Below are positions 1-4,495 of a stretch of DNA of 4,704 nt, in pieces. Position numbers and translations under genes: made by a program. The stretch is from a virus. Its lineage: Duplodnaviria > Heunggongvirae > Uroviricota > Caudoviricetes. Under the pieces are notes generated by a model, which was not told where the DNA came from, did not search any database, and worked only from the letters and a program-made list of their open reading frames with translations. The stretch spans positions 1-4,704 of the IMG/VR virus record IMGVR_UViG_3300014919_000025; one strand, written 5' to 3'. Positions within the stretch are counted from its first letter, which is position 1, and every line of letters starts with the position of its first letter.

Positions 1-24
1 AGAGTAATTCATCGGCACGTTAAA

Positions 25-657
25 TCATATCAGGCGTAATACCACAACCCTTAAGTTAGCGCTTATGGGGTTTACCCCCTCATTCAAACGGGCTTTCCAG
101 GCTTTGAAGGCTGCAGATTTTGAATTGCCACCAGCACGTTTTGGATAGGCCAGCCATGCCTGCTCAAACTCCGGAGAGTATTCCGGTCGGTTTGAACGAA
201 CTCGCACAGACTCATCAGCAGATGCACCAACAGCTATTGGTTCATTGACTGGTTCTTTGACTGGTTCAAAAGAGTGACTGGTTCTGGGTGAATCTCCTGC
301 ACTACCCCCTGGTGCAACTCCTGCACTACCTGGTGAATTTGCTGCACCAGATAGTGAATTATTTGCACTACCCCCTAGTGAATCTCCTGCACCATCAAGA
401 TGAAGGAGATAGATATTACTTGAGTTACCTTTTTCACCTTTCCGGGTGACTTTTTTTACCAGCCCGGACTCACAAAGGGCCGCAATATGATTCATCACAG
501 AACGTTTGCTAATCTCGCACTGGTCAGCAATATGCTGGTAGCTGGGCCAGCACTCACCCTGATCGCTGGCATTATCAGCCAGCTTAATCAGAACCAGTTT
601 TCGCAATGGATTTCCCACTCGAATTTTCATCGCTTTAACCATCAACTCCATACTCAT
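25..657 (-). CDS. Putative replication-initiation protein (210 aa): N-terminal winged-HTH domain, Gly/Ser/Ala/Pro-rich repetitive linker, short basic C-terminal region
   Basis: ORF-track ORF. The N-terminal region (LVLIKLADNASDQGECWPSYQHIADQCEISKRSVMNHIAALCESGLV) has the pattern of HTH domains found in phage/plasmid replication initiators. The ATG at 657 overlaps the stop of the upstream 74-aa ORF (ATGA at 654-657). It occupies the position of an O-like gene in a cro-cII-O type operon. The product call is inference; the coding call is better supported. Confidence 0.6.
   Translation of the reverse strand: MSMELMVKAMKIRVGNPLRKLVLIKLADNASDQGECWPSYQHIADQCEISKRSVMNHIAALCESGLVKKVTRKGEKGNSSNIYLLHLDGAGDSLGGSANNSLSGAANSPGSAGVAPGGSAGDSPRTSHSFEPVKEPVNEPIAVGASADESVRVRSNRPEYSPEFEQAWLAYPKRAGGNSKSAAFKAWKARLNEGVNPISANLRVVVLRLI
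240..392. repeat. Intragenic short direct repeats (iteron-like) in the linker of the replication gene
   Basis: TGACTGGTTC occurs three times (246-255, 258-267, 275-284). GTGAATCTCCTGCAC occurs twice exactly (288-302, 378-392), with degenerate copies near 332-348 and 352-368. CTGCACTACC(CCCT) occurs at 297-310, 321-330 and 364-376. These encode the low-complexity linker GAGDS / GSAGDSP / EPVKEPVNEP. Confidence 0.6.
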
Positions 658-878
658 GCAGCACCTCCGAGATGCTTCATGTTTTTTCCGGAGCGAAAGG
701 CTATAAGCGGCATACTGACGCGGTAATTACGGCCCAGCGGTTCACAAATCACCTTCTGACATTCACGGTCAACCAGGCTAACACGTAGAACATGCCCTGC
801 AGGCGTGGTGTACCACTGACCCGGACGAGGACAACGGAAAGTATGATTGGTAAACCGTTTGAAAATATTCCGGATCAT
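654..878 (-). CDS. Hypothetical small protein (74 aa), translationally coupled between Rha copy A and the replication gene
   Basis: ORF-track ORF. Its ATG (878-876) overlaps the Rha copy-A stop as ATGA (875-878), and its stop overlaps the next ATG as ATGA (654-657). An AGGGGG Shine-Dalgarno-like motif lies 5 nt upstream of the ATG. No recognisable domain. Confidence 0.4.
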   Translation of the reverse strand: MIRNIFKRFTNHTFRCPRPGQWYTTPAGHVLRVSLVDRECQKVICEPLGRNYRVSMPLIAFRSGKNMKHLGGAA

Positions 879-1756
879 TTACGCCCCCTTACCTCTGAAG
901 GGTTCAGCGACAAATTTATGAGACTGGCCAGTAGCGCCGCGTCGTTGATGCGGTCATACAGACTTACAGCCAGCGGGGATTCGGCTTTTGCCAACATGGG
1001 ATAAAGCTGCTGCAGCCAGACCTTGTGGATTACCGACAGGTGGGAGTAAAGCACGCTGGCGTTATCTGCGGCATCGCTCAGCGTGGATGGCTTTGAAAGC
1101 AGTTTTTCCATCTGGTTAAAGGCATTGATGTATGCCTCTTTGAACCGGGCAGCACGTTTACCCGTGAAACCCATAGCAAGAAACGCAAAACCGTCTCGTG
1201 TGATTTGATAGCAAAGGAGCTTGCGTGTACCACCGTTCGGTTGATTTACCGAAATCGATGTCTCCGCAAAATTGCGGGCACAAAACTCAGGGGAACAATC
1301 CAGAGTGCGGATCTTTTTCAGCACATCGTCGTGACGCTTGGAGAAGAAGTTGGCAACAGCCAAAGAAGTGGTAACGGCCTGGCCGTTGTCAATGGTGATT
1401 TCAGGTTGAGTGAGGGCTGGGATCGTAGCCATGATGGCAGCCTCCGTTGACAGTGAAAAACTTCCACCACCGGAAACGCCAATTTCACTGGTGGTGAACT
1501 GGACGGGGTTGGCGTAACCGGCGTCAACGGAGACCGGCGCACCTTTCGGTGCCCCCGCCCAGCCCACCATAATCTGGATGTGAGCAAATGCGGACGATAA
1601 AAAAGACGCTGGCGCGTCATACATCGCCGTTGACAATTTCAGGACGCCAATCCCGGCACCCGCTTTATAAGGTGCCTGAACAGTGTAACGTCCCGGAATT
1701 GCAGAATCAATATGCTGGTGGCGATTGGTAAACAGTTTGAAAATATTCCGGATCAT
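875..1756 (-). CDS. Rha-family phage regulatory protein, copy A. The full ORF is 293 aa; the Rha domain is the C-terminal 185 aa (875-1432) and has its own SD+ATG
   Basis: Rha hallmarks are present: FFSKRHDDVLKKIRTL and YQITRDGFAFLAMGFTGKRAARFKEAYINAFNQMEK. An internal start ATG at 1432-1430 is preceded by GGAGG (1441-1445 on plus) with an 8-nt spacer. The ORF is also open upstream to an ATG at 1756 that overlaps the copy-B stop (ATGA 1753-1756). Which start is used cannot be decided from sequence alone. Confidence 0.6.
   Translation of the reverse strand: MIRNIFKLFTNRHQHIDSAIPGRYTVQAPYKAGAGIGVLKLSTAMYDAPASFLSSAFAHIQIMVGWAGAPKGAPVSVDAGYANPVQFTTSEIGVSGGGSFSLSTEAAIMATIPALTQPEITIDNGQAVTTSLAVANFFSKRHDDVLKKIRTLDCSPEFCARNFAETSISVNQPNGGTRKLLCYQITRDGFAFLAMGFTGKRAARFKEAYINAFNQMEKLLSKPSTLSDAADNASVLYSHLSVIHKVWLQQLYPMLAKAESPLAVSLYDRINDAALLASLINLSLNPSEVRGRK
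1599..1618 (-). terminator. Terminator-like hairpin plus U-run inside the leader of Rha copy A (possible attenuator)
   Basis: On the minus strand, GACGC-gcca-GCGTC (plus 1605-1618) is followed directly by UUUUUU (plus 1604-1599). The stem is only 5 bp and the element lies within an open reading frame, so confidence is low. Confidence 0.3.
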
Positions 1757-2898
1757 TTACGCCCCCTTACCTCTGAAGGATTCAGCGACAAATTTATGAG
1801 GCAGGCCAGCGCCGAAGCATCATTAATATAGTCATACAAGCTAACAGCCAGCGGAGATTCGGCTTTTGCCAACATAGGATAAAGCTGCTGCAGCCAGACC
1901 TGATGAATTGATGAAATGTAGGAATAGAGAACGCTGGCGTTATGTGCAACGTCGCTCAGTACAGAGGGATTTGAAAGCTGTTTCTCCATCTGGTTAAAGG
2001 CATTGATGTATGCCTCTTTGAACCGGGCAGCACGTTTCCCCGTGAAGCCCATGGCAAGAAACGCAAAACCGTCGCGGGTGATTTGGTAACAAGGGAGTTT
2101 GCGGCCTGTGCAATCGGTGTAATCACTGGGCTGAAAATTCAGCTCAGTGAATTCAACAGAGCACTCAAGCGTCTGGATTTTTTGAATAACGTTTTTGTGC
2201 TGCTTGCAGAAATATTCGGCAACGGCCAAAGAAGAGGTAACAGCCTTCCCATGGATAACATCAATTTTAGGGTGAGTTTGGGTAGGGGTGGTTGCCATAG
2301 TGACATCCTCATGTGCGAATTTTGAAAACTCACCACATGGGACGCCAATCACAGAGGTGGTGAGACGTACAGGGTTGGCGTAACCGGTCGCACATGACCC
2401 CGGCGCATCTTTCGATGCCCCTGCACGCCCCACCATAATTTGGATGTGAGGAAACGTGCGCAAAAAAACCGCTGAAGCGCGGTTATGCGCATGTGCGAAT
2501 TTCAGGACGCCAATCCCGGCACCCGCTTTATAAGGTGCCTGAACAGTGTAACGTCCCGGAATTGCAGAATCAATATGCTGGTGGTCCTTCACACTCAACA
2601 AAATCACGCCTGAATTTCCACAAAGGACTAAAGCACTCATGCGGGTAGTCTTTGCGAAGATAGATAACGCGCTGTGTTTCTGGCTCCCAACGAATAACAT
2701 GGACATAAAGCCCTCTTCCGTCACGAAACCAGCGGTTAAGTTCCTGCACAACTCGCCCCCCACAGTCAGGTAAAGTTCTCTGTGGTTACTTACAGCCAGG
2801 TGATTTGGTAATCTGCATTCATGCCGTAACAACAGGTGTTCAGCGACGCTGACCACCAGCTGTTGCGACAAACGGTTATTTGCCGTTAAACTATTCAT
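1753..2898 (-). CDS. Rha-family phage regulatory protein, copy B, as a composite 381-aa ORF: a Cys/His-containing N-terminal region of about 105 aa, a leader of about 95 aa, and a Rha domain (1753-2298, 181 aa) with its own SD+ATG
   Basis: Rha motifs are present: YFCKQHKNVIQKIQTL and the identical core YQITRDGFAFLAMGFTGKRAARFKEAYINAFNQMEK. The internal ATG at 2298-2296 is preceded by GAGGA (2306-2310 on plus) with a 7-nt spacer. The ATG at 2898 overlaps the stop of the upstream 185-aa gene (ATGA 2895-2898). There is no in-frame stop between 2898 and the Rha domain. Confidence 0.55.
   Translation of the reverse strand: MNSLTANNRLSQQLVVSVAEHLLLRHECRLPNHLAVSNHRELYLTVGGELCRNLTAGFVTEEGFMSMLFVGSQKHSALSIFAKTTRMSALVLCGNSGVILLSVKDHQHIDSAIPGRYTVQAPYKAGAGIGVLKFAHAHNRASAVFLRTFPHIQIMVGRAGASKDAPGSCATGYANPVRLTTSVIGVPCGEFSKFAHEDVTMATTPTQTHPKIDVIHGKAVTSSLAVAEYFCKQHKNVIQKIQTLECSVEFTELNFQPSDYTDCTGRKLPCYQITRDGFAFLAMGFTGKRAARFKEAYINAFNQMEKQLSNPSVLSDVAHNASVLYSYISSIHQVWLQQLYPMLAKAESPLAVSLYDYINDASALACLINLSLNPSEVRGRK
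2462..2484 (-). terminator. Terminator-like hairpin plus U-run inside the leader of Rha copy B (possible attenuator)
   Basis: On the minus strand, AACCGC-gcuuca-GCGGUU (plus 2467-2484) sits next to a run of seven U (plus 2468-2462). It is at the position equivalent to the copy-A element but with a different stem sequence. Confidence 0.3.
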
Positions 2899-3452
2899 GC
2901 GTTAGTTTCTCCACAACCAGAAGCAATCGACGCCACGACGCCCGGAGCTGCACACTCGCGGGCGTTACTCTTTTCTGGAGCGCAGAAGATTTTGTAGACC
3001 AGTGCTGCATGCTCCTGGAGCTTCGAAATTGAAAGATACAGTTCGTCGTTAATTGCTGTCTTCTCATGCGGTTCCACTACACCGTCTTCGATTGCTGAAC
3101 GAATCTGTCTGGAATAACTGCCGATCTGTTCAATGACTTCCAGCAGGCGCTGGTTTATATCGGCGTTCTCTACTGCCTCAATTTCAGGAAGCGATACGAA
3201 CACCCCACCAGCAGACTGTGCGACAGCATCCGCAATGTAGTGAGTGCCAGCCGCACGCTGTAAAACCATTGCCCATCCCAGCGGGAAAATCTGATCGCCA
3301 TCTGCACGAAGGCGGTTGAATAATGCGTTCTCTGTTACATCCAGCCACTCAGCAGCTTCAGCGTAACCCCCCGGCAACGCCGCGATAGTTTTTCTGACAG
3401 CTTTCACGTACCACTCAGGCTGTTTTTCCACTTTCCAGTGATGATTACCCAC
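2895..3452 (-). CDS. Hypothetical regulatory protein at the cII position of the operon (185 aa), possibly CII/YdaT-like
   Basis: ORF-track ORF with a GTG start at 3452, preceded by AGGAGG (revcomp of 3460-3465) with a 7-nt spacer. The start overlaps the cro-like stop by 8 nt. The functional call rests on position only and is a weak inference. Confidence 0.55.
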   Translation of the reverse strand: MGNHHWKVEKQPEWYVKAVRKTIAALPGGYAEAAEWLDVTENALFNRLRADGDQIFPLGWAMVLQRAAGTHYIADAVAQSAGGVFVSLPEIEAVENADINQRLLEVIEQIGSYSRQIRSAIEDGVVEPHEKTAINDELYLSISKLQEHAALVYKIFCAPEKSNARECAAPGVVASIASGCGETNA

Positions 3453-3705
3453 GGCTTACCTCCTGTTCCTGTGGTTTAAACCCATTCTGGTTTTGGCTAG
3501 ATTGAAAACGTGCCGGATAAAGAATCTGCATTTCGCTGATTTCACCCTTAAAAAAATTGGCCAGACGTTCTGCAAGATCGATAGATGGAATTTGTTCCAG
3601 CCTTTCAATACGACTCAGCGTCGCTGGATTGACCTGAACGCCAGCAGCAACATGCTGCAAAGTAAATCCGTGCGCCTTACGCACACTCCGTAATGGTGAT
3701 TGCAT
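3445..3705 (-). CDS. Cro-like XRE-family HTH transcriptional regulator (86 aa)
   Basis: Small HTH protein (GFTLQHVAAGVQVNPATLSRIERLEQIPSIDLAERLANFF) transcribed divergently from the repressor gene. GGAGGT lies immediately upstream of the ATG (revcomp of 3709-3714). It is the first gene of the minus-strand operon. Confidence 0.7.
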   Translation of the reverse strand: MQSPLRSVRKAHGFTLQHVAAGVQVNPATLSRIERLEQIPSIDLAERLANFFKGEISEMQILYPARFQSSQNQNGFKPQEQEVSRG

Positions 3706-3802: not shown

Positions 3803-4495
3803 ATGAACATAGGAAACCGAGTCAGACAACTTCGCCAGGCGAAGAACATGAAAATCGCCGATCTCGCTGAAGCAATAGGAGTGGATGCGGCGAATATCTC
3901 ACGCCTGGAAACAGGTAAGCAGAAACAATTCACTGAACAAGCCCTGAGTAATATTGCCAGGAGCTTAGGTGTTGATATCGCTGATCTCTTTACCTCAGAC
4001 GTCAAAAGTAATACTGTATGTAAAAACAGTATTGGTGAGGATGTTGCGCAGGTGAAGGATGTATTCCGTATTGAAATGCTGGATGTCAGTGCCAGTGCGG
4101 GAAATGGCCTTATCCAGGGCGGTGATGTCATTGATGTGATTCATGCCATTGAATACAGAACTGATAATGCTGTATCGATGTTTGGCGGACGGCCAGCCAA
4201 TCACATTAAAGTTATCAACGTTCGTGGGGACAGTATGTGTCCAACCATTGAGCCAGGAGATCTCATCTTCGTTGATATCAGTATCAATCAGTTTGATGGG
4301 GATGGTATATATGTATTTGGTTTTGATGATAAAATTTACGTCAAACGACTGCAAATGATACCTGATAAACTGCTGGTAATTTCTGATAATCAGATTTACC
4401 GCGAATGGGGAATTACCAGCGAAAACGAACATCGGTTTATGGTCTTTGGAAAGGTCTTAATCAGTCAGTCACAAACCCTTAAGCGACACAATTAA
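3803..4495 (+). CDS. cI-like prophage repressor (230 aa): N-terminal XRE-type HTH plus C-terminal LexA/S24-type autopeptidase domain
   Basis: The N-terminus NIGNRVRQLRQAKNMKIADLAEAIGVDAANISRLETGK is a canonical HTH. The C-terminal domain has the nucleophile in VRGDSM (Ser144) and the general base in YVKRL (Lys181), spaced 37 residues apart as in LexA. A candidate Ala-Gly cleavage site is SASA-GNG (Ala99-Gly100). Confidence 0.85.
   Translation: MNIGNRVRQLRQAKNMKIADLAEAIGVDAANISRLETGKQKQFTEQALSNIARSLGVDIADLFTSDVKSNTVCKNSIGEDVAQVKDVFRIEMLDVSASAGNGLIQGGDVIDVIHAIEYRTDNAVSMFGGRPANHIKVINVRGDSMCPTIEPGDLIFVDISINQFDGDGIYVFGFDDKIYVKRLQMIPDKLLVISDNQIYREWGITSENEHRFMVFGKVLISQSQTLKRHN

What the first reader, a model, noticed from the sequence alone, without database searches (positions are those of the whole stretch)
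240..392. Iteron-like direct repeats inside the replication gene, as at the lambda origin within gene O
There are three exact copies of TGACTGGTTC and a degenerate array of about 21-bp units built around GTGAATCTCCTGCAC / CTGCACTACCCCCT. They lie in the linker between the HTH domain and the C-terminal region. A moderately AT-rich stretch is adjacent (400-470). In phage lambda the replication origin (iterons plus an AT-rich region) lies inside the O gene. The repeats could be initiator binding sites, although they may simply encode a low-complexity flexible linker.
Basis: partly seen in the sequence, partly recalled or inferred. Interest (0 to 1): 0.5.

Follow-up and report, generated by a model that had tools for sequence, protein, structure and literature searches.

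The report
Phage replication origin inside initiator gene
The repeats are very probably the replication origin of a widespread family of lambda-like prophages, written into the linker of the initiator gene itself: five initiator-binding sites followed by a short DNA block that is frozen across many bacterial genera. In this window the initiator gene is cut off by an insertion sequence.

Summary
Window 288-392 holds five 15-bp dyad cores (GTGMA-N5-TKCAC) spaced 24/21/21/24 bp. Window 246-284 holds three exact TGACTGGTTC words.

The origin reading is strongly supported by comparison, not by experiment. In about 200 related genes from E. coli, Salmonella, Pseudomonas, Vibrio, Shewanella, Aeromonas and others, the same winged-helix (HTH_36) domain is always followed by 3-8 dyad repeats spaced 21-24 bp.
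- The core sequence changes with the lineage and covaries with residues 50-56 of the recognition helix.
- In 53 of 88 loci identical cores are read in different reading frames within one intact gene, so they are DNA elements, not a peptide repeat.

The TGACTGGTTC words are a second element, distinct from the iterons. The block AGAACCAGTCAC-N6-GAACCAGTCA has invariant synonymous sites, while the neighbouring domain is saturated with synonymous change. It lies 2 nt after the last iteron and occurs only in this gene. I infer it is the unwinding or loading element.

The protein is not a member of the lambda O Pfam family, but it occupies O's position. IS421 truncates this copy (210 versus 272 aa). 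I rate it a new variant of a known kind.

The parts
1..66 (.). End of an IS421 (IS4-family) insertion sequence that truncates the replication gene
   Evidence: Phage homologues match only from window 67 onward. E. coli genomes that match 1-700 annotate an IS421 transposase abutting a 'helix-turn-helix ... missing C-terminus' pseudogene.
25..657 (-). Replication initiator gene (lambda O analogue, SfV orf39 / Stx-phage 'Eru6' type), truncated. Only 67-657 is homologous (aa 1-197 of 272).
   Evidence: ORF listing. Pfam HTH_36 at 44.7 bits, above the 25-bit cutoff. PHROG 270/8540/391 'replication initiation (O-like)'. Full-length 272-aa relatives.
394..657 (-). Coding sequence of the N-terminal winged-helix DNA-binding domain (aa 1-88). 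The predicted recognition helix, aa ~49-64, corresponds to window 466-513.
   Evidence: HTH_36 match over aa 17-67. A low-confidence AF2 model gives helices at 41-46 and 51-64 and strands at 67-73 and 79-85. Residues 50, 52, 53, 55, 56, 69 and 71 are the columns that covary with iteron sequence.
400..470 (.). It codes for the wing (KGEKGNSSNIYLLHL) and the end of the recognition helix, and is not shown to be part of the origin.
   Evidence: GC is 0.37. There is a family-wide GC dip of -0.087 here, but synonymous sites vary freely: Ser uses 6 codons and Leu 6.
378..392 (.). Iteron 1 (first in the coding direction): GTGAATCTCCTGCAC
   Evidence: Family-wide unit analysis.
354..368 (.). Iteron 2: GTGAATTATTTGCAC
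333..347 (.). Iteron 3: GTGAATTTGCTGCAC
312..326 (.). Iteron 4: GTGCAACTCCTGCAC, with perfect 5-bp inverted arms. This is the unit duplicated in 6- and 7-iteron variants of the same phage type.
   Evidence: Copy-number variants L044, L048 and L063.
288..302 (.). Iteron 5 (last): GTGAATCTCCTGCAC. It ends 2 nt before the conserved block.
   Evidence: The last spacing is 24 bp in 76 of 87 loci, and the gap to the block is 2 nt in 68 of 88 loci before register correction.
234..287 (-). Family-invariant block. Coding strand: CC-AGAACCAGTCAC-TCTTTT-GAACCAGTCAA-A-GAACCAGTCAA-T-GAACCAATAG. The words lie at 275-284, 258-267 and 246-255, with a degenerate fourth at 234-243. It is the candidate unwinding / ssDNA-binding / loading element.
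   Evidence: Present in 78 of 80 diverse genomes. Synonymous sites are frozen: AGA 73/73, AGT 73/73, TCT 68/68. It is read in two frames. Word spacing is 17 then 12 nt, with 2-4 words per locus. It is exclusive to this gene context, 120 of 120. It coincides with the deepest family-wide GC dip, -0.136.

Best explanation
Window 234-392 is the replication origin of an SfV/ST64B/mEp460-type lambdoid prophage (the 'Eru6' type of Stx phages). It is embedded in the linker-coding part of the phage's own initiator gene, as ori-lambda is embedded in gene O.

Shown by comparison:
- The five 15-bp dyad cores (GTGCA-N5-TTCAC on the coding strand) are DNA-level elements spaced about two helical turns apart.
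- Their sequence co-evolves with the recognition helix and wing of the N-terminal winged-helix domain encoded immediately upstream.

Inferred:
- Dimers of the initiator bind the cores and build a bent nucleoprotein complex like the lambda O-some.
- The adjacent invariant block of 2-4 direct GAACCAGTCA words (17- then 12-nt spacing, starting 2 nt after the last iteron) is where the duplex is opened, or where the initiator contacts single-stranded DNA. This would parallel the AT-rich region of ori-lambda or the 13-mers and DnaA-trios of other origins.
- The variable C-terminal domain then recruits the helicase. That could be the host DnaB system in this 'solo' type, or a lambda-P-like, DnaC-like or DnaB-like neighbour in relatives.
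- Transcription from the cro-side early promoter runs through the origin, as in lambda.

State of this copy: IS421 has removed the last 75 of the 272 codons. The origin DNA is intact, being identical to the second most common variant among 80 copies. The cis-encoded initiator is probably inactive, so the origin could fire only with an initiator supplied in trans.
For: (1) The repeats are real and non-random.

(2) The architecture is conserved in 88 analysed loci from many genera. There are 3-8 units per locus (mode 5). Spacings are almost only 21 (117 cases), 22 (44), 23 (48) and 24 (93) bp.

(3) The cores are dyad-symmetric. 324 of 379 units and 32 of 39 distinct consensus cores have at least 4 of 5 complementary outer pairs, against a random expectation of 1.6%.

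(4) The elements act at the DNA level, not the peptide level. In 53 of 88 loci the cores are read in more than one frame within one intact gene. In L098, for example, GTGCAGGAGATTCAC encodes VQEIH in one unit and SAGDS in another. Different phages also read the same motif in different frames.

(5) Iterons covary with the initiator.
- A partial Mantel test of iteron distance against helix distance (aa 49-63), controlling for aa 6-48, gives r = 0.57. None of 2000 permutations reached it.
- An unbiased per-column scan peaks at aa 52 (0.67), 53 (0.48), 50 (0.40), 55 (0.38) and 69 (0.43). All of aa 1-48 stay at or below 0.24.

(6) The block is under DNA-level constraint.
- The mean top-codon fraction at 4- and 6-fold degenerate sites is 0.98 in the block and 0.43 in invariant residues of the N-domain.
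- Arg is always the rare codon AGA, even in Pseudomonas.
- Shewanella reads the same DNA as PEPVTLEPVNE instead of PRTSHSFEPVNE.
- The block never occurs outside this gene.

(7) The protein is functionally equivalent to lambda O.
- Eight unrelated C-terminal domains follow the block.
- One of them is the lambda/phi80 O C-terminal domain: 40% identity, E 3e-25.
- Genes like lambda P / phi80 gp14 follow many members.
- phi80 gp15 shows the same in-linker layout of four dyad sites at a 21-bp period.
- The anatomy of ori-lambda, and the binding of O to the single-stranded AT-rich region, come from PMC5043065 and PMC7466680.

(8) Both arrays show unit-wise copy-number polymorphism: 5, 6 or 7 iterons and 2-5 words.
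Against: - No experiment was found for this family: no origin cloning, no footprint, no replication-intermediate mapping.
- The block is only moderately AT-rich, about 40% GC. In this window the lowest-GC stretch is on the other flank (381-460). Family-wide, the lowest-GC 30-nt window falls upstream of the iterons about as often as in the block (30 versus 29 loci). The site of unwinding is therefore not settled.
- The recognition-helix assignment rests on the Pfam match and a low-confidence single-sequence model (pLDDT 45).
- Related sequences are not independent, so the covariation statistics overstate the number of independent events.
- The copy in this window has a truncated initiator gene and may be inert.
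Confidence: 0.8

Rival explanations
1. The repeats are only a by-product of a low-complexity, flexible Gly/Ser/Ala/Pro linker made by in-frame duplication, with no function as DNA.
For: The region does encode a Gly/Ser/Ala/Pro-rich linker (GAGDSLGGSANNSLSGAANSPGSAGVAPGGSAGDSP). In this window all five units are in the same frame (spacings 24/21/21/24). Unit-wise copy-number variation occurs.
Against: - In 53 of 88 loci units are spaced 22 or 23 bp, so identical cores are read in different frames.
- Linker peptides differ completely between lineages (SDKMSP, VTESH, PVPPKST and others), yet dyad symmetry and 21-24-bp phasing persist.
- The cores covary with the recognition helix.
- The word GAACCAGTCA is read in two frames within one gene, and its synonymous sites are frozen.
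Confidence: 0.03
2. The dyad repeats are binding sites of the initiator or another phage protein, but they serve something other than origin firing. Examples would be autoregulation or a roadblock of early transcription, copy control or handcuffing, or exclusion of related phages. On this view the true origin lies elsewhere.
For: Binding-site covariation shows recognition, not initiation. Iteron arrays in plasmids also act in copy control (established knowledge; reviewed in PMC5043065).
Against: - The layout matches mapped origins of lambda and phi80 point for point (PMC5043065, PMC7466680).
- The N-domain plus repeats substitutes for the lambda-type N-domain plus ori in natural chimeras that carry the lambda-O C-terminal domain and a P-like neighbour.
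- The module is tied to an invariant adjacent element at fixed distance.
- No other repeat-rich, AT-rich non-coding candidate is seen in the 4.7-kb early region of this window.
Confidence: 0.08
3. The iterons are the origin, but the invariant GAACCAGTCA block is not an unwinding element. It would instead be (a) a conserved joint for homologous recombination that swaps C-terminal modules, (b) a conserved peptide motif (PRTSHSFEPVxEP) for a protein partner, or (c) a site for a host factor shared by Gammaproteobacteria.
For: - Eight unrelated C-terminal domains begin right after the block, so it sits exactly at a module boundary.
- The peptide is conserved in most members.
- The block is only about 40% GC, and the other flank is as AT-rich.
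Against: - Synonymous sites are frozen across lineages whose N-domains are saturated with synonymous change. That requires direct selection on the DNA.
- Shewanella and Parashewanella keep the DNA but read another frame, which argues against a peptide motif or a rare-codon effect.
- Divergent lineages changed all their words together while keeping the tandem 11-12-nt layout: AACCATCA x3 in Vibrio phages and GAACCGT-type x4 in P. aeruginosa phages. That points to multiple binding of one factor rather than a crossover patch.
- There is no match to the DnaA-box or IHF consensus (by inspection, from my own knowledge of those consensus sequences).
Confidence: 0.25

Closest known systems
ori-lambda within gene O, and the phi80 origin within gene 15 (lambda O family, Pfam PF04492)
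   Same: - The origin lies inside the initiator gene, in the linker between a DNA-binding N-domain and a helicase-recruiting C-domain.
- It holds four or more dyad-symmetric sites at a period of about 21-24 bp. phi80 has TTCCCGAAAACGGGAA x4 at 21 bp.
- An AT-richer segment follows downstream in the coding direction.
- N-domain plus ori behaves as one exchangeable specificity module.
- It lies in the early rightward operon after the cro- and cII-like genes.
- Some relatives even carry the lambda/phi80 O C-terminal domain and a P-like gene.
   Different: - The N-domain belongs to Pfam HTH_36, not PF04492. It gives no hit to PF04492, and hhalign to phi80 gp15 reaches only 4.5% probability.
- The cores are 15 bp of GTG-N9-CAC type.
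- The downstream element is not a plain A+T tract. It is an invariant array of direct 10-nt words frozen across genera.
- This phage type has no P-like or helicase gene next to the initiator; the next gene is PerC-like.
Iteron origins of plasmids (Rep_3 / RepA-RepE-pi-TrfA type)
   Same: Helically phased repeats of about 20 bp are bound by a winged-helix initiator. An adjacent unwinding element is built of short direct repeats (13-mers). Some Rep proteins are reported to bind it as single strands (from established knowledge; plasmid iteron origins are reviewed in PMC5043065).
   Different: Plasmid iterons are direct repeats bound by monomers and lie outside the rep gene. Here the units are dyads, lie inside the coding sequence, and the protein family differs.
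Replisome-organizer origins of Gram-positive phages (SPP1 G38P / oriL within gene 38; TP901-1 and related lactococcal phages), DnaD-like
   Same: The origin repeats lie inside the organizer or initiator gene. The protein gives a weak, sub-threshold match to DnaD_N (PF21984, 25 bits against a 27-bit cutoff). PHROG neighbours are named 'DnaD-like helicase loader'.
   Different: The hosts, repeat sequences and repeat layout differ, and the DnaD_N match is below the curated cutoff. The statements about those phages come from my own knowledge and were not tested here.
'Eru5' and 'Eru6' replication units of Shiga-toxin phages (PMC8951638)
   Same: These are the same genes. The Eru6 reference, Stx2a_WGPS2, matches window 67-900 at 98.4% identity. 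The Eru5 reference, Stx2a_F403, is locus L005, with iterons GGGCAGGAGCTGCCC x3.
   Different: That paper classifies the regions by gene content and notes the HTH_36 motif. It states that nothing is known about the replication proteins of Eru phages, and it describes no origin or repeats.

Membership tests
Lambda O initiator family (Pfam PF04492 Phage_rep_O) | N-terminal domain matches the Phage_rep_O profile | tested here: not met
   There is no PF04492 hit at E <= 0.01 for the window protein or for the full-length mEp460 homologue. phi80 gp15 hits it at E 6e-25. hhalign of the N-domain alignment against phi80 gp15 aligns only the HTH helices, at 4.5% probability.
Lambda O initiator family (Pfam PF04492 Phage_rep_O) | C-terminal domain of lambda-O type, paired with a lambda-P-like helicase loader gene | tested here: not met
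   The window/SfV type has a different C-terminal domain (PHROG 26426 / 3729 / 1701) and is followed by a PerC-like gene. Other members of the same N-domain family do meet this feature (L096 and others).
Lambda-type origin (ori inside the initiator gene) | Four or more dyad-symmetric initiator sites, phased at about two helical turns, inside the linker-coding part of the initiator gene | tested here: met
   The window has five cores at 288-392 with spacings 24/21/21/24. Family-wide spacings are 21-24 bp. Dyad symmetry is shown. The position after the HTH domain is shown.
Lambda-type origin (ori inside the initiator gene) | Iteron sequence specific to the cognate initiator's N-terminal domain | tested here: met
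   Partial Mantel r = 0.57, reached by 0 of 2000 permutations. The covarying columns are aa 50-56 and aa 69 and 71. This is comparative evidence, not a binding assay.
Lambda-type origin (ori inside the initiator gene) | A+T-rich unwinding region next to the iterons | tested here: inconclusive
   There are family-wide GC dips on both flanks: -0.136 in the block and -0.087 upstream. Only the block is constrained at the DNA level. In this window the upstream flank is the more AT-rich.
Lambda-type origin (ori inside the initiator gene) | Supports initiator-dependent replication; initiator binds the repeats | not testable with these tools
   This needs origin cloning, EMSA or footprinting, or replication-intermediate mapping. 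No published test was found.
Pfam HTH_36 (PF13730) winged-helix proteins / PHROG 'replication initiation (O-like)' | Profile match above the curated threshold | tested here: met
   HTH_36 scores 44.7 bits against a 25-bit cutoff, E 1.2e-11. PHROG 270 gives E 1.7e-88, PHROG 8540 gives 7.8e-62 and PHROG 391 gives 1.1e-39.
DnaD-like replisome organizers (Pfam DnaD_N PF21984) | Profile match above the curated threshold | tested here: not met
   25.0 bits against a cutoff of 27, and 24.3 bits for the full-length protein.

The most novel reading that the evidence does not exclude
The invariant array of GAACCAGTCA words that starts 2 nt after the last iteron is a previously undescribed class of initiator-proximal unwinding or single-strand-recognition element. 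It would be functionally comparable to the DnaA-box-plus-DnaA-trio unit of bacterial origins or the 13-mers of iteron plasmids. It would be shared by a very large family of phage origins across Gammaproteobacteria, including the 'non-lambdoid' Eru5 and Eru6 Shiga-toxin phages, and read by the conserved part of an HTH_36 initiator whatever helicase-recruiting domain is attached.
Probability: 0.4. Interest if true: 0.65.

Novelty: new variant of a known kind. Interest (0 to 1): 0.5.

Why it matters
- It assigns an origin and an initiator to a replication module that is very common in enterobacterial, Pseudomonas, Vibrio, Shewanella and Aeromonas prophages. The N-domain was found in more than 540 IMG/VR stretches and in 216 stretches from a scan of one representative genome per species.
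- The module includes the Eru5 and Eru6 types of Shiga-toxin phages. A 2022 survey stated that nothing was known about their replication proteins (PMC8951638), and Stx phage replication drives toxin output.
- The family offers a natural specificity table: about 39 distinct iteron cores paired with recognition-helix variants. For example, Asn to Arg at position 56 goes with GTGCA/TTCAC changing to GTGAC/GTCAC. This could be used to study or engineer winged-helix DNA recognition and orthogonal origins.
- The frozen word block is an unusually clean case of DNA-level selection inside a coding sequence. It gives a concrete, testable candidate for how such initiators open DNA.

Tried and rejected
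- Hairpin or cruciform in the repeat region: single-strand folding of 230-400 is no better than shuffles (z = -0.71).
- Known RNA family: Rfam finds nothing credible in 230-400. The only hit is mir-875 at 22 bits against an 84-bit threshold, which is chance.
- Promoter inside the repeats: no sigma-70-like site in 1-900.
- Solved structure of a relative: the PDB sequence search returns only noise from the low-complexity linker.
- Homology of the N-domain to lambda/phi80 O: not detectable.
- Single-sequence AlphaFold2 of aa 1-92: low confidence (pLDDT 45). Only its secondary structure was used, with caution. I ran no further search on an MSA-based model because the conclusion does not depend on it.
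- My first dyad count was confounded, because the spacers between cores (CAC-N-GTG) also score as dyads. I replaced it with unit finding and a fixed-register test.
- Rare-codon (AGA) pausing or +1 frameshifting at CCC-AGA as the reason for block conservation: rejected as a general explanation, because Shewanella and Parashewanella members read the block in another frame.
- Literature searches for the motifs, and for an origin in SfV, ST64B, ZF40 or HTH_36 initiators, found no description. The SfV genome paper and the Weigel & Seitz 2006 review of phage replication modules are not in the held library, so prior mention there cannot be excluded.
- Plasmid records that carry the N-domain are mostly phage-sized circles of about 40 kb, for example in Arsenophonus. 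They are not informative as minimal replicons.
Full report
**Context.** The window is the early region of a lambdoid prophage of the SfV/ST64B/mEp460 type in E. coli.
- It holds an S24-type cI-like repressor gene (3803-4495, +).
- On the minus strand it holds a cro-like gene (3445-3705), a CII/CP76-like gene (2895-3452), two Rha/Ash antirepressor genes (1753-2898 and 875-1756), a small ORF (654-878) and the replication gene (25-657).
- Phage records match window 67-900 at up to 98.6% identity. There the gene is annotated 'replication protein (O)', 'primosomal protein I' or 'helix-turn-helix protein'.
- Intact copies encode 272 aa.
- Window 1-66 is the end of an IS421 element that has cut the gene. 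The 210-aa ORF is therefore a truncated product with a 13-residue foreign tail.
- In the Stx-phage literature this module is 'Eru6'. Its reference phage, Stx2a_WGPS2, is one of the top hits (PMC8951638).

**The observation.**
- TGACTGGTTC occurs exactly three times, at 246, 258 and 275. Shuffles expect 0.32 matches, and 0 of 200 reach 3.
- GTGMANNNNNTKCAC occurs five times, at 288, 312, 333, 354 and 378, with spacings of 24, 21, 21 and 24 bp. Shuffles expect 0.04. Tandem Repeats Finder sees the array with period 24.
- The repeats encode the linker that follows the HTH_36 domain (aa 17-67).
- GC falls to 0.37 over 381-460.

**Comparative anatomy.** I collected relatives in four ways:
- tblastn of the full-length protein against phage records, which gave 301 records;
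- a search with an N-domain alignment in IMG/VR, which gave 547 confirmed stretches. The best 80 are near-identical SfV-type copies;
- the same search in one genome per species, which gave 216 confirmed stretches. The best 80 span Enterobacter, Pseudomonas, Proteus, Rahnella, Xenorhabdus, Marinomonas, Aeromonas, Shewanella, Aliivibrio, Marinobacter and others;
- a scan for the block itself.

Every member has the same layout. The winged-helix domain comes first. It is followed by 3-8 repeat units and then by the block C(C)-AGAACCAGTCAC-N6-GAACCAGTCA.

In 88 analysed loci the unit number is 3-8 (mode 5). The start-to-start spacings are 21 (117 cases), 22 (44), 23 (48) and 24 (93) bp, with only seven outliers. 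The last spacing is 24 bp in 76 of 87 loci, and the last core ends 2 nt before the block.

**The units are DNA elements.** Three results show this.
- The cores are dyad-symmetric. In a fixed register, 324 of 379 units and 32 of 39 distinct consensus cores have at least 4 of 5 complementary outer pairs, against a random expectation of 1.6%.
- The 22- and 23-bp spacings shift the reading frame. In 53 of 88 loci identical cores are translated in different frames within one intact gene. In a Pseudomonas locus, GTGCAGGAGATTCAC encodes VQEIH in one unit and SAGDS in another.
- Across phages the linker peptides are unrelated, while the phasing and symmetry persist.

A peptide repeat cannot explain any of this.

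**The units belong to the initiator.** Core sequences fall into classes that track the recognition helix:

| Recognition helix | Iteron core |
|---|---|
| SKRSVM(N/I)HI | GTGCA-N5-T(T/G)CAC |
| (K/R)R(T/S)xMRHI | GTGAC-N5-GTCAC |
| SKTSVRNHI | TAGCAGGAGATGGCA |
| DRSTVRKHI | TAGGCCCAGAAAGCA |
| SRSTVKSHI | GGGCAGGAGCTGCCC |

- The partial Mantel correlation between iteron distance and helix distance (aa 49-63), controlling for aa 6-48, is 0.57. None of 2000 permutations reached it.
- A scan of every column, made without prior assumptions, puts the association at aa 52 (0.67), 53 (0.48), 50 (0.40), 55 (0.38), 56 (0.27), 69 (0.43) and 71 (0.30). All of aa 1-48 stay at or below 0.24.
- These positions are the start of the third helix and the first wing strand, according to the Pfam match and a low-confidence model (H51-64, E67-73).
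- The sequences are related, so the permutation count is not a true probability. The pattern nevertheless recurs across many separate classes.

**The TGACTGGTTC words are a second element.** On the coding strand the block reads AGAACCAGTCAC TCTTTT GAACCAGTCAA A GAACCAGTCAA T GAACCAATAG.
- It is present within two mismatches in 78 of 80 diverse genomes.
- Invariant residues of the N-domain use all synonymous codons. Arg19 and Ser39 use six codons each, and the mean top-codon fraction is 0.43. In the block the codons are fixed: AGA 73/73, AGT 73/73, TCT 68/68, ACC 51/51, CCC 59/59, GAA 70/70 and GTC 66/68, for a mean of 0.98. This holds even in GC-rich Pseudomonas, where AGA is a rare codon (from my own knowledge of Pseudomonas codon usage).
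- The word is read in two frames within one gene (AGA-ACC-AGT-CAC and GAA-CCA-GTC-AAx). Shewanella and Parashewanella members read the whole block in another frame, as PEPVTLEPVNE.
- Words number 2-4 per locus, spaced 17 and then 12 nt. Their number varies between otherwise near-identical phages, as does the iteron number of 5, 6 or 7.
- Distant members with 34-44% N-domain identity keep the layout but changed all their words together: AACCATCA x3 in Vibrio phages and GAACCGT-type x4 in P. aeruginosa phages.
115 have the N-domain within 520 nt upstream. The other five are cut by the end of the stored stretch but still show iterons.

**Which flank opens?** Aligned on the block, the family shows two GC dips. 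The other is -0.136 at +30, inside the word array.
- The upstream dip is explained by the amino-acid composition of the wing (KGNSSN-Y). Its synonymous sites vary freely.
- Only the downstream side is constrained as DNA. It is also the side where lambda and phi80 have their A+T-rich segment (PMC5043065).
- I therefore favour the word array as the unwinding or single-strand contact element. This step is inferred, and the lowest-GC 30-nt window of a gene falls on either side about equally often (30 versus 29 loci).

**Equivalence with lambda O.** The protein is not a member of PF04492, but it sits in O's place.
- Eight unrelated C-terminal domains follow the block.
- One is the lambda/phi80 O C-terminal domain: L096 against phi80 gp15 gives 40% identity and E 3e-25.
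- Genes like lambda P / phi80 gp14 follow many members, and DnaB- or DnaC-like genes follow others.
- phi80 gp15, a true PF04492 protein, has four annotated gp15 sites at a 21-bp period in its linker.
- The SfV type has no helicase or loader gene beside the initiator; the next gene is PerC-like.

**Verdict.** It is a new variant of a known kind of system: a lambda-style in-gene origin built on a different winged-helix family, with an unusual invariant word array. I found no description of it in the searchable literature, but two likely sources are not held. The copy in this window has intact origin DNA and a truncated initiator gene.

Noticed in passing
window 1-66: The end of an IS421 (IS4-family) element abuts the replication gene at window 66/67 and removes its last 75 codons. 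The same junction is annotated in E. coli OkiPb strains, next to an anti-phage dCTP deaminase gene.
   Followed up: yes
window 1487-1574 and 2353-2440 (C4 antisense RNA); 1599-1675 and 2462-2538 (isrK); 1636-1688 and 2499-2551 (weak a1/b1 targets): Rfam finds two copies each of the P1/P7-type C4 antisense RNA and of the isrK sRNA, all above gathering score. They lie inside the 5' parts of the two tandem Rha/Ash antirepressor genes. The whole antirepressor-plus-RNA immunity cassette therefore appears to be duplicated in tandem.
   Followed up: no
loci L096, L097, L095, L183 and others; L239/L260; L007: The same N-domain plus iterons plus block module is fused to at least eight unrelated C-terminal domains. 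One is the lambda/phi80 O C-terminal domain. The module is often followed by a gene like lambda P / phi80 gp14 (up to 86% identical to phi80 gp14). The block sits exactly at the module junction.
   Followed up: partly
L014:1340-1495 (Stx2a phage Stx2_14040, 'Eru7'): An initiator with the same C-terminal domain as the SfV type has an unrelated N-terminal part with no Pfam hit. It carries its own in-gene repeats: AAACCCNNTTTCG x3, and a 12-bp unit CAGAGAATACAA x3. It may be another origin of the same general design.
   Followed up: no
L015-L094 (80 IMG/VR copies of the SfV type): There is unit-wise copy-number polymorphism: 5 iterons in most copies, 6 in L044 and L048, and 7 in L063. GAACCAGTCA words number 2 to about 5, with L015 the highest. 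Stx2_EH2085 has 7 iterons against 3 in the related F403.
   Followed up: partly
L176-L179 (Vibrio phages Va_PF430-3_p42 and 1.042.O; Pseudomonas phages PotUPM1 and F_TK1718sp/PAK): Distant members keep the design but with different words: AACCATCA x3 in the Vibrio phages and AGAACCGTAAT / AGAACCNACAAG / GAACCGTCAG in the Pseudomonas phages. All the words in an array have changed together.
   Followed up: partly
window 434-449 (+ strand): There is a terminator-like hairpin with a T-run on the strand antisense to the replication gene. One such site was found against 0.8 expected by chance, so it is probably fortuitous.
   Followed up: no
window 4123-4152: A short 9-bp tandem repeat (TGATGTCAT x3.3) lies inside the cI-like repressor gene.
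   Followed up: no
plasmid records H131-H140 (Arsenophonus nasoniae, about 28-104 kb) and others: The N-domain is found on many phage-sized circular 'plasmid' records, notably about ten in Arsenophonus nasoniae. These may be extrachromosomal phage genomes that use this replication module.
   Followed up: no
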